Source: a virus (Duplodnaviria > Caudoviricetes). Taken from it: 64,000 nucleotides of DNA. A program made the position numbers and the translations under genes. Positions 5,479 to 10,578 of the stretch are shown here, in pieces. How positions within the stretch are numbered: position 1 is the first letter of the stretch; every line of letters starts with the position of its first letter. The notes under the pieces are model-generated. The model was not told where the DNA came from. It ran no database searches and saw only the letters and a program-made list of their open reading frames with translations. Location of the stretch: positions 32,001-96,000 of IMG/VR virus record IMGVR_UViG_3300037067_015039. One strand, written 5' to 3'.

Positions 5479-5712
5479 CTAATCCTTTGGCGCGGCTGGC
5501 AGAATATAGAAATTGCGCCATTCCCCGCAATTTACACCAAACAAAATATCTTGGTTTTTCCAGACTTCCAGCCGGCCATTAATTTCACTAACTGTAATCT
5601 GGTTTGCATGCGCAATTTCCTGCGAACTACCGTCTCGGAAAAAAATCCGAACTGCCTTATTCCCTTTAATCTGATATTCCCTTAAAAGCTTCGATTCTGA
5701 GATTTCGCTCAT
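5479..5712 (-). CDS. Hypothetical protein
   Basis: GGAGG RBS before MSEISE. Confidence 0.6.
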   Translation of the reverse strand: MSEISESKLLREYQIKGNKAVRIFFRDGSSQEIAHANQITVSEINGRLEVWKNQDILFGVNCGEWRNFYILPAAPKD

Positions 5713-6004
5713 CCATTGCCGCCTCCACGGCTTTCTCGACGTCCGCAAGTTGTCCAAGACGACGAGACACTTCCACCTTATGCCAATGTTTAAAAGTAAC
5801 AGAATTGACCATACGTTCTAATGCTGCTTTTTTGTTTTGAGCTTGAGATCTGAATTCGCGTCCTTCGCCAAAAGCGCCAGACGCTATATGCGTGATGCGG
5901 ACTCCGTTTTGATTGGAGTTTTGATGCTGGCCGCCAGGGCCACCTGTGCAGAAGGTGGCAATTTTGAAATCCTTTTTTGTCAGACTAAATAAAAGTTTTC
6001 TCAT
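5666..6004 (-). CDS. Class I release-factor-like GGQ protein (ArfB/PrfH-type peptidyl-tRNA hydrolase domain)
   Basis: TGGPGGQHQN..NGVRITHIASG...RSQAQNKKAA; no codon-recognition domain. Confidence 0.88.
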   Translation of the reverse strand: MRKLLFSLTKKDFKIATFCTGGPGGQHQNSNQNGVRITHIASGAFGEGREFRSQAQNKKAALERMVNSVTFKHWHKVEVSRRLGQLADVEKAVEAAMDERNLRIEAFKGISD

Positions 6005-6400: not shown

Positions 6401-7927
6401 TTAGTCTTCTTGATTGCCATCACTGAACGCCTCCGACAATTTCAAAAGTGGAGTTGCCATAATCTCATCCACCAAAGAGTAGGGATTGGTCCGCATGCTT
6501 TGGACCAGGTTTGGTATACTGTAATAATCGATATCAATACCGAGTTCAAAAACTTGCAAATCAAACCCGTTCTTCTTCATGCTCTCGGCAAATTCCTGAT
6601 CTCCCCATCCCCTGTTTTCAGCCCCACAACGATAGAAATAAACGGGGATATCCTTATCTGCAACCTGCAAAAGGCGCCGGTATTCATCGGAAAAAAATGG
6701 AGGAGAATTCTCCAGACCATCTGAGACGATCGCAATTCCGTCAATCTCAATATGACTCAACATAGCCGATCTCAATCCGCAACCAATGGAAGTCCCTCCA
6801 TTAGCATTGACATTCCGGGTCTTCTTCAAAATTTCTTCATAGCCAAACCCGGTGACATCAATCATTAACGGAGTCTGATCGAAGAAAGTAAGGGTAACGC
6901 TTCCCTTAACCATCTTCGCCAAAGTTCCCGCCACATGTCTGGAAGCCTCGATGCATTGAGACATTGATCCCGACTTATCACCGAGAATCAGCCAATTGCC
7001 CTCAATGCTCATATTCTGAATCTGCTTCTCCTGGACTGCATGGAGCTTGGCTTTCAGTTTTTCATCCCCAATCGCTTCCGCGGCGCGGGTAGTCTTCAAG
7101 ACGTTTTTCTTAGAAACAGCCGCCCGTTTAAGAGCATCCTCAAAAGCAGCACGAAGCGCCGGAACTTCTTTGACGCCCAATTTCTCCAGCATTTTAGTGC
7201 TGGTGACGACTTCTGTCGGGCTCATACGCTCAATAAGCGCAAGAACTAAATCAGGATCCTTTATTTTATTTCCGAGCGCCCCATGTGCTATCAAGAACGG
7301 GATCTTCCGTTCAAGAATGGTTCCCGCGGCTTCTTTTGAACTCATATTCCGCAGGTTTGCGACTGCCTCAAAAATGCTTCCTTTAGGAAGAGGAGATCTG
7401 ACCGGCTGCCGGCCTTCCGCTTTTGCTTTCAATCTTTCTTCCAGGGTGTGTCCAAAGAGAACGATATTCACCCGATCAGAGCCAGGTTTGACATCAGCTA
7501 GGGAATAGAGTTCCTTGAGAACCGCACGGTGCTGGATCGCGGTGAAATCCCATTTCTTACCTTCCTTCATGTGGAGGTAATCCGCAATCACCCTTTTGAG
7601 TTGGCGAATATGGCCAAGCGGCCGGACATCCAGAGCGAATCGATACGCCTTCAACAACTCCCGTGGATTCAGGAAAGTCAAATGAGCAAGACTGTTCTCG
7701 ACAAGTTCTTGCGGAAATCCAGGAACCGTTAAACTGACGATAGGCAATGCCGCCTTCGCATCCCTAATCTGGCCATGGGTACGATCCCAAGCAATAAGAT
7801 GAGCCAGAAAATCAGGTTCATTCTGAGCCGCAAGCTGTCCTATTGCGAGGTATTCACGGAGTTTCCCATGAGGAGATTTCGTGAGTTCTGAGATAATTTG
7901 GTTCTTGGTTACTTTGACCTTTTCCAT
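6401..7927 (-). CDS. Ro60/TROVE-like RNA-binding protein (helical ring + C-terminal vWA)
   Basis: 508 aa; N-terminal helical region (EPDFLAHLIAWDRTHGQIRD), vWA MIDAS DKSGS, GGTSIG, IVSDGLEN; adjacent tRNA-like RNA array. Confidence 0.75.
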   Translation of the reverse strand: MEKVKVTKNQIISELTKSPHGKLREYLAIGQLAAQNEPDFLAHLIAWDRTHGQIRDAKAALPIVSLTVPGFPQELVENSLAHLTFLNPRELLKAYRFALDVRPLGHIRQLKRVIADYLHMKEGKKWDFTAIQHRAVLKELYSLADVKPGSDRVNIVLFGHTLEERLKAKAEGRQPVRSPLPKGSIFEAVANLRNMSSKEAAGTILERKIPFLIAHGALGNKIKDPDLVLALIERMSPTEVVTSTKMLEKLGVKEVPALRAAFEDALKRAAVSKKNVLKTTRAAEAIGDEKLKAKLHAVQEKQIQNMSIEGNWLILGDKSGSMSQCIEASRHVAGTLAKMVKGSVTLTFFDQTPLMIDVTGFGYEEILKKTRNVNANGGTSIGCGLRSAMLSHIEIDGIAIVSDGLENSPPFFSDEYRRLLQVADKDIPVYFYRCGAENRGWGDQEFAESMKKNGFDLQVFELGIDIDYYSIPNLVQSMRTNPYSLVDEIMATPLLKLSEAFSDGNQED

Positions 7928-7950: not shown

Positions 7951-8030
7951 TCACTGGAAGTCGATTGGCTTGTTATGCCGAAAAGCAGGCATCATGTGTT
8001 CAAGACATGTAAGCTAATCAGTACCAGTGA
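7951..8030 (-). ncRNA. Scaffold RNA unit 1 (Y-RNA-like), payload = anticodon-like hairpin (CUUGAAC) + second hairpin
   Basis: UCACUGG-UACUG-AUUAGCUU-ACAUG...AAGCCAAU-CGACUU-CCAGUGA. Confidence 0.75.
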
Positions 8031-8037
8031 AACTTTA

Positions 8038-8129
8038 TTGCGGAAAGTCGGTCGGCTCTTGGTTGACTAAGGACTTTACATCCTCCGCCTATGTTTTTAA
8101 GGAACATGTAAGCCAATCAGTATCCGCAA
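8038..8129 (-). ncRNA. Scaffold RNA unit 2, payload = two 7-nt-loop hairpins
   Basis: UUGCGGA-UACUG-AUUGGCUU-ACAUG...GAGCCGAC-CGACUU-UCCGCAA. Confidence 0.75.
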
Positions 8130-8137
8130 AACTTTTC

Positions 8138-8213
8138 GTCCCATGTGCTATAGGCGCTGCGTCGTTTTAGCCCTGTTATGCCTAATTTGGGCCACTCAGA
8201 CAGCACATGGGAC
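8138..8213 (-). ncRNA. Pseudoknot-capable structured RNA A
   Basis: Perfect 12-bp closing stem; inner GGCCC/GGGCU; loop UAGGC complementary to downstream GCCUA. Confidence 0.55.
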
Positions 8214-8217
8214 TTCC

Positions 8218-8291
8218 GATGGTCCCCACTACGGCTCTTATAGCCCCAATCCTCGAACCTTGGGTGGGTGTTGCCGGGCTATCCGACCATC
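8218..8291 (-). ncRNA. Pseudoknot-capable structured RNA B
   Basis: GAUGGUC/GACCAUC closing stem; AUAGCCC/GGGCUAU; loop GGC and CCCAC complementary to downstream GCC and GUGGG. Confidence 0.55.
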
Positions 8292-8298
8292 TAAAATC

Positions 8299-8433
8299 TG
8301 GCTGCAAAGTCGATTCCGGAGTTGTCATGTTGCCCTACCATTGGGCGAATCCGGCATAAGGTGGAGCCGGATTCTGGATTCGAACCAGAACACTCATTGC
8401 TGAGTTCATGTAACCGTTTTCAGTGTGCAGCCA
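8299..8433 (-). ncRNA. Scaffold RNA unit 3, YrlA-like permuted tRNA payload (T arm, acceptor, D arm)
   Basis: T arm UCUGG-UUCGAAU-CCAGA, acceptor AUCCGGC-UCCA-CCUUAU-GCCGGAU, D arm GCCC-AAUGGUA-GGGC inside scaffold. Confidence 0.85.
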
Positions 8434-8445
8434 TATAATTTGGGC

Positions 8446-8500
8446 GGGTGTCATTCATCCCCCCGGGGAGATTCCCACATGGCCAATGCAGTAGACACCC
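8446..8500 (-). ncRNA. Degenerate scaffold unit
   Basis: GGGUGUC/GACACCC stem, UACUG and CAUG retained, CGACUU lost. Confidence 0.4.
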
Positions 8501-8510
8501 ATAATTTTTC

Positions 8511-8666
8511 TGGCCTTTAAGTCGATCAGCCTATTTTTCTGCGCGTTTACCATTTACGCCATTGCCCCATAATAAAGTTAAGGCGGGGCAAGAAGGATTC
8601 GAACCTCCAATTTCGGTTTCCCGAAAACAGGACCCTAAGTCATGTAAGCTATTCAGTAAAAGGCCA
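8511..8666 (-). ncRNA. Scaffold RNA unit 4, permuted tRNA-Leu(UAG)-like payload
   Basis: GA-CUUAGGG-UCCUG, long variable arm, T arm, UUGCCCC...GGGGCAA acceptor, Leu-type D arm, then CAG. Confidence 0.85.
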
Positions 8667-8687
8667 TAATCTTTTCAAAGATCTGGA

Positions 8688-8808
8688 AGAGTCTGCAACG
8701 CCTTGGAGCCTGTAATATAATTCCGCAACTAATTCAGGATCCACGTTAGTCCGAATCGCTTGCTCTGGTAGCCAAGAGGCAGTGTGTTTTTACCTGGACT
8801 CAGACTCT
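8688..8808 (-). ncRNA. 121-nt multibranch structured RNA
   Basis: AGAGUCUG/CAGACUCU closing stem enclosing AGUCC/GGACU and AACG-UGGA-CCUG/CAGG-UCCA-CGUU arms. Confidence 0.5.
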
Positions 8809-8900
8809 ATAATCCGGGGGGCTCTTGGGACGCTATCCACTTTGAGCCCCTATTCAAAATGCCCTCAATATGGGCGTTTAGTATTTTATGGCTGTAAGCC

Positions 8901-8931
8901 GTTTCAATCCACGCCTCACAACGGAAGCGAC
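8901..8931 (-). CRISPR. Solitary type I-C-like CRISPR repeat (not an array)
   Basis: GTCGCTTCCGTTGTGAGGCGTGGATTGAAAC: GTCGC start, 6-bp hairpin, GCGTGGATTGAAAC end typical of I-C repeats. Confidence 0.7.
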
Positions 8932-9052
8932 TTGGCTGTAAGTCGAATGAGGATCATTTGTGTTCGATACCCATCGACCCCCCCATACTATTTTTGTGGA
9001 GGGGGGCGCCTGCGAGGCGCTACGCATGTAGCCTCAAAACAGTAACAGCCAA
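8932..9052 (-). ncRNA. Scaffold RNA unit 5, degenerate permuted tRNA/tmRNA-like payload
   Basis: UUGGCUGU-UACUG...CUACAUG...GCGCC hairpin, CCCCCUCCA-linker-GGGGGGG, UCGAU/AUCGA...CGACUU-ACAGCCAA. Confidence 0.7.
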
Positions 9053-9059
9053 ACTCTAA

Positions 9060-9242
9060 TCCCTGTGGTCCGGACAACTCACTCCCAAGTACCCCGGATT
9101 CCCGGATTGCAAGATCATAGTCAGAAAACAAAATCGGCTTGCCCCTTGGAGTCGGTCTCTTGCCAATTTCTGCTATGTGTATCCACGGGCGCTAATCCCT
9201 TGCTGTGTTGGGGCGATGGCTCTCACGCCAATGCCACAGGGA
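9060..9242 (-). ncRNA. 183-nt structured RNA directly downstream of HNH gene
   Basis: UCCCUGUGG/CCACAGGGA closing stem; inner CAUAG-CAGAAA/UUUCUG-A-CUAUG and UUGGC/GCCGA. Confidence 0.55.
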
Positions 9243-9246
9243 AAAT

Positions 9247-9819
9247 CTACTTGATTACCCGCTTTGCGAGATAATCAACAAACTTATTAGGATCCATCCC
9301 GCGCTCTGCGCACCAGATAAACGGATCCTGCGAACCTTTATCCTTGTTGCATGATTTGCAGGACGTCAGATAGTTCGAAGTATTATTCTTCTTTTCGTCC
9401 ATTTCGAGAGGGATGAAGTGATCAATCGTCATAAGAGCTTCACCCATCTTTTTCCCGCAATACATGCATTTGAAACCATCGGCCGCCCAAACCTTTTGTT
9501 GGATCGAGCCTGATATTTCATATCTCACCTTTCGTTGGAAGATCTTGGGGTTTCCAACAAGTATTTCCGGATCATCAGAGCGGTGAATGAAATCAGACCA
9601 TTCTTCTACTGTAAGTTCTCTCCATTCGCTATAAGCACATATATCCATGCCATTATTATTGGCTCGGTTAAGAACTCCAGGAAGGGCCAGAATCATGCTC
9701 GAACCACCCCCTGTAAGAAGAATGCCACTAATCTTAACCAGTGACCCGATATCCCCATACATAACCGGGCGATTTCGCATTTCCATCAAATAAAACCGAT
9801 CACCGCTACTCTTGGCCAT
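9247..9819 (-). CDS. HNH endonuclease with unknown N-terminal domain, embedded in RNA array
   Basis: DGFKCMYCG...LMTIDHFIP...NYLTSCKSCNKDKG; GAGG RBS. Confidence 0.85.
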   Translation of the reverse strand: MAKSSGDRFYLMEMRNRPVMYGDIGSLVKISGILLTGGGSSMILALPGVLNRANNNGMDICAYSEWRELTVEEWSDFIHRSDDPEILVGNPKIFQRKVRYEISGSIQQKVWAADGFKCMYCGKKMGEALMTIDHFIPLEMDEKKNNTSNYLTSCKSCNKDKGSQDPFIWCAERGMDPNKFVDYLAKRVIK

Positions 9820-9836
9820 CTCTACCTCTTAAAAAC

Positions 9837-9968
9837 TGGCGTCAAGTCGATATGCTTTATTTCGCGCTCTAACCAGACTGAGCTACCCGGACGCATACGC
9901 GCCCGGGGTTGGATTCGAACCAACGACCTCGGCATTGGAATTGCATGTAAGCCTACCAGTGAACGCCA
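9837..9968 (-). ncRNA. Scaffold RNA unit 6, permuted tRNA payload with UCC (Gly) anticodon loop
   Basis: GCA-AUUCCAA-UGCCG-AGGUC, T arm, CCCGGGC-GCGUAUGC-GUCCGGG, D arm GCUC-AGUCUGGUUA-GAGC, G, CG. Confidence 0.85.
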
Positions 9969-9982
9969 TTACTATAATTGCT

Positions 9983-10109
9983 GTTCCCTGAAAGTCGCTC
10001 AGCTTTTTAAGGATTGAATAATCGGATTTGAACCGATCACACACTGATTTAAATTCAGTTGCTCTACCAAATGAGCTATATTCATGTACGCTGAACAGTG
10101 TCAGGGAAC
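9983..10109 (-). ncRNA. Scaffold RNA unit 7, whole tRNA-like payload with UUA anticodon
   Basis: GAAUA-UA-GCUC-AUUUGGUA-GAGC-A-ACUGA-AUUUAAA-UCAGU-GUGUG-AUCGG-UUCAAAU-CCGAU-UAUUCAA inside scaffold. Confidence 0.85.
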
Positions 10110-10549: not shown

Positions 10550-10578
10550 AATTTACTTCTGGTTATATTCTATGTCAA
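10550..10578 (-). promoter_or_regulatory. Sigma70-type promoter upstream of wHTH / RNA array / Ro60 unit
   Basis: TTGACA-17 nt-TAAATT. Confidence 0.55.

What the first reader, a model, noticed from the sequence alone, without database searches (positions are those of the whole stretch)
8851..8947. Solitary type I-C CRISPR repeat inside the RNA array whose downstream spacer matches an adjacent TTC-PAM site
Seen: GTCGCTTCCGTTGTGAGGCGTGGATTGAAAC (8931->8901) starts at the base after unit 5. The following sequence GGCTTACAGCCA (8900->8889) matches 11/12 to GACTTACAGCCA (8944->8933), which is preceded by TTC. About 20 nt on lies a possible degenerate repeat (hairpin GCCC/GGGC then ATTTTGAATA). No cas genes in the window. 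Established: I-C repeats are cut by Cas5d, the I-C PAM is TTC, solitary repeat units in phages can act as RNA anti-CRISPRs (Racr), and short-complementarity crRNA-like RNAs (CreA/CreR) steer Cascade to repress transcription. Inference: either a Racr decoy, a host-Cas5d processing site for the array, or a Cascade-sensing switch. The duplicate could instead be an alternative pairing partner for unit 5's closing stem.
Basis: partly seen in the sequence, partly recalled or inferred. Interest (0 to 1): 0.8.

Follow-up and report, generated by a model that had tools for sequence, protein, structure and literature searches.

The report
Lone CRISPR repeat in phage RNA array
A 109-kb phage carries one genuine copy of a bacterial type I-C CRISPR repeat inserted behind one unit of its Ro60-associated small-RNA array; it is most likely another example of the known phage trick of using a lone repeat as an RNA decoy against host CRISPR immunity, though in an unusual place.

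Summary
A 31-nt type I-C repeat sits at 8931->8901 on the minus strand. It is solitary in the 109-kb phage genome and is followed by an 11/12 copy of the 12 nt that precede it.

The "RNA array" is a tandem set of YrlA-like Y RNAs upstream of a Ro60-fold gene.

Relatives show that the repeat plus the duplicate is one clean 43-44-nt insertion. An 88% relative has it; relatives at 79%, 66% and 65% have the same Y unit without it.

- The TTC "PAM" exists only in this phage.
- The supposed degenerate second repeat is an older hairpin, also present where no repeat exists.
- The self-targeting and CreA-like readings are therefore not supported.

Three other lineages of the same phage clade carry different solitary I-C repeats at other sense-strand intergenic sites. 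None of 49 more distant Ro60-phage records does. All changes between the two copies spare the Cas5c recognition features.

Best reading: a Racr-type RNA anti-CRISPR (confidence 0.45).

Caveats:
- The host is unknown and expression is untested.
- In this phage, unlike its relative, an alternative fold is predicted to hide the repeat hairpin.

The scan has noted solitary repeats in phages many times on other DNA.

The parts
8901..8931 (-). Solitary type I-C CRISPR repeat: GU, then stem CGCUUC/GAGGCG with loop CGUUGU, then 11-nt tail UGGAUUGAAAC. The predicted Cas5c cut lies between 8912 and 8911.
   Evidence: [quoted passage not shown]
8888..8900 (-). Downstream copy of the duplication (GGCTTACAGCCAT). 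It can form a 4-bp/3-nt-loop hairpin, or in this phage pair with repeat nt 10-17.
8932..8944 (-). Upstream copy (GACTTACAGCCAA). It comprises the end of the conserved CGACUU motif plus the 3' closing strand of Y-like unit 5.
8945..8947 (-). TTC trinucleotide (looks like the I-C PAM). It is specific to this phage and overlaps the conserved CGACUU motif.
8932..9052 (-). Y-like RNA unit 5, with terminal stem UUGGCUGU/ACAGCCAA, then UACUG ... UACAUG ... CGACUU. Homologs are present in all four other lineages examined (L001, L126/L127, L128/L129, L130).
8852..8877 (-). It starts 24 nt after the repeat.
   Evidence: L126, which has no repeat, has UGCCA-AAAUGA-UGGCA at the same place.
7951..10109 (-). 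Array of about 8 Y-RNA-like units, interrupted by an HNH gene at 9247-9819. It is the presumed transcription unit that carries the repeat.
   Evidence: Rfam YrlA hit at 9833-9969, 42.7 bits (below the gathering score of 69), and a partial hit at 8332-8390. Shared scaffold motifs. Promoter-like site at 10578->10550.
6401..7927 (-). Ro60/Rsr-like protein (TROVE + vWA fold), 508 aa, immediately downstream of the array.
   Evidence: AlphaFold2 pLDDT 80.5. Foldseek top hits are Ro60/TROVE structures (9kop, 9l5y, 2nvo, 1yvp; E 2.5e-10 to 1e-7; TM about 0.6). Sequence profiles alone find only a weak vWA match.

Best explanation
The element is a solitary repeat unit (SRU) copied from a host type I-C CRISPR array. 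It is carried on the sense strand of the phage's Y-RNA/Ro60 operon and so is presumably transcribed with it.

Proposed mechanism, inferred by analogy with tested Racrs including RacrIC1: the RNA offers host Cas5c an authentic stem base, the UGG trinucleotide and the 11-nt handle. Cas5c, and possibly Cas7/Cas8c, are then drawn onto a phage RNA that cannot form a useful Cascade. The upstream product is a tightly folded Y RNA ending in the repeat hairpin. The downstream product is a handle followed by structured RNA. Host crRNAs lose in the competition for Cas proteins.

Shown here:
- It is a true I-C repeat.
- It is a derived insertion shared by two phages.
- Sister lineages acquired other I-C repeats independently.

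Inferred, not shown:
- Transcription and Cas5c binding or cleavage.
- Inhibition of CRISPR immunity.
- That the host has a type I-C system.
For: 1. Repeat identity and geometry.

2. Conservation in L001/L218. The four differences lie in the loop or change U.G to C-G in the stem. GU, the stem base, UGG and the tail are identical. Only 0.5% of random 4-substitution sets, or 2.8% if the three adjacent loop changes count as one event, spare all these features. These are the features Cas5c needs, while the loop is tolerant (PMC8524198).

3. Four independent I-C SRUs occur in the clade with at least 60% Ro60 identity, each with a different stem and site and all sense-strand and intergenic: this one; G003 between ORFs; G004/G005 right after a TTGACA promoter; G006 with a terminator about 80 nt on. 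None of 49 more distant Ro60-phage records has the tail motif. In IMG/VR3, SRUs occur in about 0.1% of viral genomes (2,103 in 2.3 million, PMC10651486).

4. RacrIC1 is experimentally validated, and 83% of prophage SRUs match the host's CRISPR subtype (PMC10651486).

5. The element is co-oriented with a multi-unit ncRNA operon that has a promoter-like site upstream.
Against: - The host is unknown. About 2,200 spacers from I-C arrays with this repeat type do not match the phage, and a 300-genome search found no spacer either.
- No acr-like neighbours were found.
- The closest sibling lineage, G002 (a complete genome), does without any such repeat.
- In this phage the stem is weakened (U.G). An alternative hairpin between repeat nt 10-17 and the duplicate is predicted to be 4.4 kcal/mol more stable than the canonical fold, leaving the canonical stem probability near 0. 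In L001 it is above 0.9. This copy may therefore be caged or decaying.
- Only two independent sequences carry this insertion, so the selection tests are weak.
- The decoy idea does not explain the 13-nt duplication.
Confidence: 0.45

Rival explanations
1. One-guide mini-CRISPR. The repeat turns the sequence that follows it into a crRNA-like guide loaded into host I-C Cascade. It would act either against sibling phages that have the uninterrupted site (a selfish, homing-like cassette) or, Cracr/CreA-style, to repress a host cas or toxin promoter.
For: - The insertion can equally be described as [13 nt + repeat] placed exactly between TTC and the G of CGACUU. The RNA after the handle then reads the uninterrupted 'empty-site' sequence, while the phage's own site is interrupted after 13 nt. 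This is the only reading that explains the duplication.
- Self-recognition is disabled in both carriers by different routes: a position-2 mismatch in the window and loss of the PAM in L001.
- A hairpin starts 24 nt after the handle, and short pseudo-spacers plus a terminator are typical of viral Cracrs (bioRxiv 10.1101/2024.10.29.618823).
- An empty-site sibling co-occurs with a carrier in sample 3300037067.
Against: - No sibling has TTC plus a matching 35 nt. The empty sites available have TGC, GTC or GCC, and the match to L126 breaks after 12 nt.
- The window's guide has a seed mismatch at position 2, inside the invariant CGACUU motif, so it fits no conceivable Y unit perfectly.
- There is no second repeat to define the 3' end.
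- No host promoter match could be sought because the host is unknown. The 11-mer hits in I-C loci are at chance level.
- The other three SRUs of the clade show neither a PAM nor a duplication.
Confidence: 0.2
2. Functionless scar: a fragment of a host CRISPR array captured by illegitimate recombination in a recombination-prone, modular ncRNA array, drifting neutrally.
For: - The array is highly modular, with units and an HNH gene gained and lost between relatives.
- The insertion is young (two close lineages only), and the nearest sibling lacks it.
- The repeat differs at 13% and the duplicate at 23% between the two carriers, against 5-6% for the flanks.
- The canonical hairpin is predicted to be lost in the window copy.
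Against: - The substitutions avoid every Cas5c determinant (p about 0.005-0.03).
- Four independent sense-strand acquisitions in one clade, against none in 49 other records.
- Direct repeats flanking the insert should favour its loss, yet two lineages keep it.
Confidence: 0.22
3. RNA-processing or Ro60-coupled device. Host Cas5c cutting is used to mature or release unit 5 or the downstream ncRNA. Alternatively, the repeat/duplicate alternative fold acts as a switch that senses Cas5c.
For: - The repeat abuts the closing stem of unit 5 with 0-1 nt between them.
- The window copy has two mutually exclusive folds.
- The duplicate's A.C mismatch was repaired to G-C in one lineage and to A-U in the other (p about 0.003, post hoc).
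Against: - The other junctions, and all relatives outside the two carriers, manage without a repeat.
- The alternative fold is not conserved in L001.
- Dependence on a host defence enzyme for an RNA maturation step is unprecedented.
Confidence: 0.08

Closest known systems
Viral solitary repeat units / RNA anti-CRISPRs (Racr; Camara-Wilpert et al. 2023, PMC10651486), especially RacrIC1
   Same: A single CRISPR-repeat mimic on a phage with no cas genes and no second repeat. It is non-coding, sense-oriented in a transcription unit, of the I-C type, and keeps the stem and handle.
   Different: It is not promoter-proximal or next to an acr gene. It is embedded in a Ro60-associated Y-RNA array, fused to the 3' end of a Y-like RNA and flanked by a 13-nt duplication. 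Activity is untested and the host is unknown. In RacrIF1 the active part lies upstream of the cut and supports a Cas7 filament, whereas here the upstream part is a tightly folded RNA.
Viral crRNA-like regulators (Cracr) and host CreA/CreR (bioRxiv 10.1101/2024.10.29.618823)
   Same: One good repeat, a short stretch (22-24 nt), then a hairpin. A PAM-proximal match of about 12 nt to a PAM-flanked site.
   Different: The only match found is to the phage's own adjacent sequence and is a duplication. The PAM is not conserved. The hairpin predates the repeat. No host cas or toxin promoter target could be identified.
Virus-borne mini-CRISPR arrays used in inter-viral conflict (as cited in PMC10651486 and PMC11656645)
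   Same: A repeat followed by sequence identical to a sibling's locus would make a guide against siblings.
   Different: There is a single repeat only. No sibling with a PAM and a full match was found, and the seed is mismatched in this phage.
Bacterial and phage Ro60/Y RNA (YrlA) modules (Chen et al. 2014, PMC4201824; phage phiLo Ro60, PMC12135203)
   Same: The context: a Ro60-fold protein with adjacent tRNA-mimicking Y RNAs.
   Different: In the papers read here I did not see a CRISPR repeat linked to Y RNAs.

Membership tests
Type I-C CRISPR repeat | Conserved termini GTCGC ... GCGTGGATTGAAAC and near-identity to repeats of real arrays | tested here: met
   29/33 identical (window) and 30/32 (L001) to repeats present in 3 to 118 copies in bacterial arrays.
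Type I-C CRISPR repeat | 2-nt 5' overhang, stem of about 7 bp, loop of 4-6 nt, 11-nt 3' tail (the Cas5c substrate geometry, PMC8524198) | tested here: met
   the isolated repeat folds as 2 + 6 bp + 6-nt loop + 11. In its context in this phage an alternative fold is predicted to dominate.
Type I-C CRISPR repeat | Part of an array with spacers and adjacent cas genes | tested here: not met
   It is solitary in the 109-kb genome. No cas hits were seen among the ORFs scanned.
SRU / Racr | A repeat match with no full or partial repeat within 100 bp, in non-coding DNA of a virus | tested here: met
   The nearby hairpin is not repeat-derived. The overlapping ORFs are broken by an indel in L001.
SRU / Racr | The host carries a CRISPR-Cas system of the same subtype | not testable with these tools
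   The host was not identified. The only support is indirect, from recurrent I-C SRUs in the clade.
SRU / Racr | Expressed as RNA, bound or processed by the Cas endoribonuclease, and inhibits interference | not testable with these tools
Only a promoter-like site at 10578 is available.
SRU / Racr | Frequent neighbourhood of acr genes | tested here: not met
   Pfam and PHROGs scans of the neighbours give HNH, RF-1 or nothing. This is a weak test, because most acr genes are unannotated.
Cracr / CreA-like crRNA-like regulator | At least 9 PAM-proximal nt of the pseudo-spacer match a host cas or toxin promoter next to a PAM | tested here: inconclusive
   No host is known. Matches in the I-C loci held are at chance level. 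The only good match is the phage's own duplicated sequence, whose TTC is not conserved.
Virus one-guide / mini-CRISPR against siblings | The guide matches a PAM-flanked site in related viruses that lack the cassette | tested here: not met
   The empty sites in L126/L223/L224, L128 and L130 have TGC, GCC and GTC, and match only about 12 nt. Closer siblings were not sampled.
Y RNA (YrlA-like), context only | Adjacent Ro60 gene, a terminal stem with a conserved internal motif, and a tRNA-like module | tested here: met
   Ro60 fold. Rfam YrlA hit of 42.7 bits, below the gathering score. Shared YACUG / UACAUG / CGACUU scaffold and complementary termini in all units.

The most novel reading that the evidence does not exclude
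The Y-RNA/repeat fusion works as one device. Unit 5 docks on the phage Ro60 (and its nuclease partner) while its 3' repeat captures host Cas5c/Cascade subunits, so that Ro60 stabilises the decoy or delivers CRISPR components or crRNA precursors for degradation. A related variant is that the cassette (13 nt + repeat), inserted exactly at a PAM, is a protein-free selfish element that uses host Cascade to attack empty-site siblings and spread by repair.
Probability: 0.1. Interest if true: 0.8.

Novelty: new member of a known kind. Interest (0 to 1): 0.42.

Why it matters
If active, it adds a type I-C RNA anti-CRISPR from an uncultured clade of roughly 100-kb phages. It would also show that such decoys can ride inside a highly structured ncRNA operon rather than beside acr genes.

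The recurrent, independent gain of I-C repeats in sister lineages is a useful natural replicate. It also predicts that the unknown host uses type I-C CRISPR.

The pair of variants, with the canonical fold in L001 and a caged fold here, offers a ready-made test of how much repeat structure a decoy needs.

As it stands this is an ordinary member of a class with thousands of predicted examples.

Tried and rejected
- Chance resemblance of the repeat to the Y-RNA 5' strand (ACUGAAAACGGUUACAUG against AUUGAAACGGCUUACAG). Rejected, because the relative's copy is 30/32 identical to natural I-C repeats.
- Degenerate second repeat at 8877-8852, or at the CGTGGATCCTGAA motif at 8745. Rejected on alignment, on distance, and on the hairpin's presence without the repeat in L126.
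- Alternative closure of unit 5 by the duplicate. It appears in the window's minimum-energy fold but is not conserved in L001.
- Spacer-protospacer recombination with excision between repeats as the origin. It predicts full-length (about 35-nt) duplications, not 13 nt.
- Cas1-Cas2 off-target integration. It predicts repeat-length duplications.
- Host search. Spacers from 120+5 I-C array loci against the phage and 70 relatives gave no real hits. A 300-genome Anaerolineae-class search gave only gene-level similarity and one 26-nt match inside a coding region, not an array. The nearest cultured phages are about 39% identical in DnaB.
- Phage-collection DNA search of the array: no match.
- Exact repeat in IMG/VR and GTDB genomes: none.
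- Camara-Wilpert supplementary tables as held (truncated): these contigs and sequences are not listed.
- Coding potential of the ORFs overlapping the repeat (8782-9045 on the plus strand, 8878-9027 on the minus strand). Rejected because of a 1-nt indel in L001 and the 43-nt indel in L126.

Full report
**What is there**

On the minus strand, 8931->8901 reads GTCGCTTCCGTTGTGAGGCGTGGATTGAAAC. It is unique in the window at up to 3 mismatches. It is also unique as a repeat-like element in the whole 109,212-bp virus record from which the window comes. The only other exact GTGGATTGAAAC lies inside a long ORF and has no hairpin.

A genome-collection scan for the same stem family returned more than 120 bona fide I-C arrays in many phyla. 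The window copy is 29/33 identical to natural array repeats, and its relative's copy is 30/32 identical.

The isolated sequence folds as 2-nt overhang, 6-bp stem, 6-nt loop and 11-nt tail.

**Context**

The repeat lies in a non-coding stretch made of tandem units. Each unit has complementary termini and the motifs YACUG, UACAUG and CGACUU.
- One unit hits Rfam YrlA at 42.7 bits, below the gathering score. Another hits it partially, through its permuted tRNA-like module.
- The 508-aa gene just downstream (6401-7927) has no Pfam TROVE hit. Its predicted structure (pLDDT 80.5) matches Ro60/TROVE proteins over its full length, including a Thermus phage Ro60 and Deinococcus Rsr.

The array is thus a Ro60/Y-RNA operon, as earlier notes of this scan also say. 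The repeat begins at the base after the closing stem of unit 9052-8932.

**Comparative anatomy**

Relatives were found through the Ro60 protein.
- L001 (88% protein identity), and an identical metagenome contig L218, carry the repeat at the same place. It reads GTCGCCTCCAGCGTGAGGCGTGGATTGAAAC and is followed by GACTTGCAGTCAT.
- L126/L127 (79%), L128/L129 (66%) and L130 (65%) have the same Y unit but neither the repeat nor the duplicate.
- L126 reads CGACTTACAGCCAAG|AAGATATT, so the window has a clean 43-44-nt insertion made of the repeat plus a 12-13-nt copy of the preceding sequence.

With three lineages lacking it, a single gain in the ancestor of the two carriers is the simplest history. 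Loss by recombination between the direct repeats cannot be excluded.

The "spacer matching an adjacent TTC-PAM site" is this duplication.
- The TTC is found only in this phage. The others have GCC, TGC, GTC and GCC.
- Its C belongs to the conserved CGACUU motif.
- The two copies have not co-evolved. The upstream copy is identical in three lineages, while the downstream copy changed at position 2 in the window and at positions 6 and 10 in L001.
- The "degenerate repeat" hairpin 24 nt downstream also exists in L126, with a compensatory change (GCCC/GGGC against GCCA/UGGC) and a different tail. It therefore predates the repeat.

**Evidence for function**

1. Substitution pattern.
   - The four differences between the two copies are three adjacent loop positions and one U.G-to-C-G change in the stem.
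   - Only 0.5% of random 4-substitution sets keep GU, all stem pairs and the tail. The figure is 2.8% if the loop block is treated as one event.

2. Recurrence in the clade.
   - Whole-record searches of relatives found three more solitary I-C repeats with different stems at different sites, all sense-strand and intergenic.
   - G003 has one between two ORFs.
   - G004/G005 have one directly behind a TTGACA promoter.
   - G006 has one after a small ORF, with a terminator about 80 nt on.
   - These lineages are all within the clade closest to the window (Ro60 identity at least 60%). None of the other 49 Ro60-phage records searched has the tail motif.
   - Solitary repeats occur in about 0.1% of viral genomes overall, and one I-C example (RacrIC1) has been shown to inhibit I-C immunity (PMC10651486).
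   - Recurrent independent gain argues for selection and for hosts with type I-C systems.

**Evidence against, and open points**

- The host is unknown. About 2,200 spacers from arrays with this repeat type do not match the phage or its relatives. A 300-genome search gave nothing relevant.
- There are no expression data and no recognisable acr neighbours.
- The window copy may be impaired.
  - Its loop changes make repeat nt 10-17 (GUUGUGAG) complementary to the duplicate (CUUACAGC). The resulting alternative hairpin scores -15.8 kcal/mol, against -11.4 for the canonical fold.
  - The canonical stem has a predicted probability near 0 here but above 0.9 in L001.
  - Co-transcriptional folding and protein binding could still favour the canonical hairpin. 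Even so, this copy may be caged, switchable or decaying.
- The duplicate's ancestral A.C mismatch became G-C in the window and A-U in L001 (p about 0.003, post hoc). This hints at selection for a small hairpin after the handle. With two sequences, and with competing pairings also possible in L001, it is only suggestive.

**An alternative raised by earlier notes of this scan**

Earlier notes on other phages suggested a different reading. The insertion can be described as [13 nt + repeat] placed exactly between TTC and the target-like sequence. The RNA after the handle then reads the uninterrupted empty-site sequence.

That would make a one-guide cassette against siblings, and it is the only idea that explains the duplication. 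I could not find a sibling with TTC and a full match. The window's guide is also mismatched at seed position 2 within an invariant motif. I therefore keep this reading as a rival rather than the lead.

**Verdict**

This is a genuine solitary type I-C repeat and a derived insertion. It is most likely a Racr-type RNA anti-CRISPR carried in an unusual ncRNA context, at moderate confidence. It is a new member of a known class.

Noticed in passing
L200 1501-1531 (-); L134 131-163 (+); L201 1501-1529 (-): Three sister lineages of this phage clade each carry a different solitary I-C repeat at a different intergenic site. One lies between two ORFs, one directly after a TTGACA promoter, and one is followed by a terminator about 80 nt on.
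   Followed up: partly
window 8886-8931 (-): Window-specific loop substitutions create an 8-bp helix between the repeat (nt 10-17) and the duplicate. This helix is predicted to outcompete the canonical repeat hairpin, and it is absent in L001.
   Followed up: partly
window 8739-8745, 8907-8913, 9181-9187 (-): The heptamer CGTGGAT occurs three times within 450 nt on one strand, against 7 in the whole window on both strands. The copy at 9181-9187 lies in an element that L126, which lacks the repeat, also has. The copy at 8739-8745 lies in an element present only in the two repeat carriers (the window and L001). These may be tRNA D-loop-like GUGGAUA motifs rather than CRISPR-related.
   Followed up: partly
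window 9060-9240 (-): A structured element of about 180 nt, closed by CCCTGTGG/CCACAGGG, lies between the HNH gene and unit 5. It is present in L126 but absent from L001, and it is not of the Y type.
   Followed up: no
window 8135-8290 (-) and 8680-8814 (-): Two further conserved non-coding blocks lie between Y units. The first is shared with L001 and partly with L126. The second is shared only with L001. Neither has an Rfam match.
   Followed up: no
window 9983-10109 (-): A Y-scaffold unit encloses a normally ordered tRNA-like cloverleaf with anticodon UUA, which ARAGORN calls tRNA-Stop. The relatives have other anticodon loops at the same place.
   Followed up: no
window 5666-6004 (-): A small RF-1-domain protein (PrfH/ArfB-like) is conserved next to the Ro60 gene in at least three related lineages, alongside several tRNA genes and HNH endonuclease genes.
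   Followed up: no
L001 and L131/L223 (both from IMG sample 3300037067): A repeat-carrying phage and an empty-site sibling occur in the same metagenome.
   Followed up: no
L122 892-922 (+); L123 14513-14544 (-): Unrelated high-GC viral contigs also carry solitary I-C repeats of the same stem family in intergenic positions.
   Followed up: no
window 8945-8947 and the homologous positions in L001, L126, L128 and L130: The trinucleotide before GACUU of unit 5 differs between lineages (TTC, GCC, TGC, GCC, GTC), whereas the neighbouring unit keeps ATC or GTC. The numbers are too small to call this diversifying selection.
   Followed up: no
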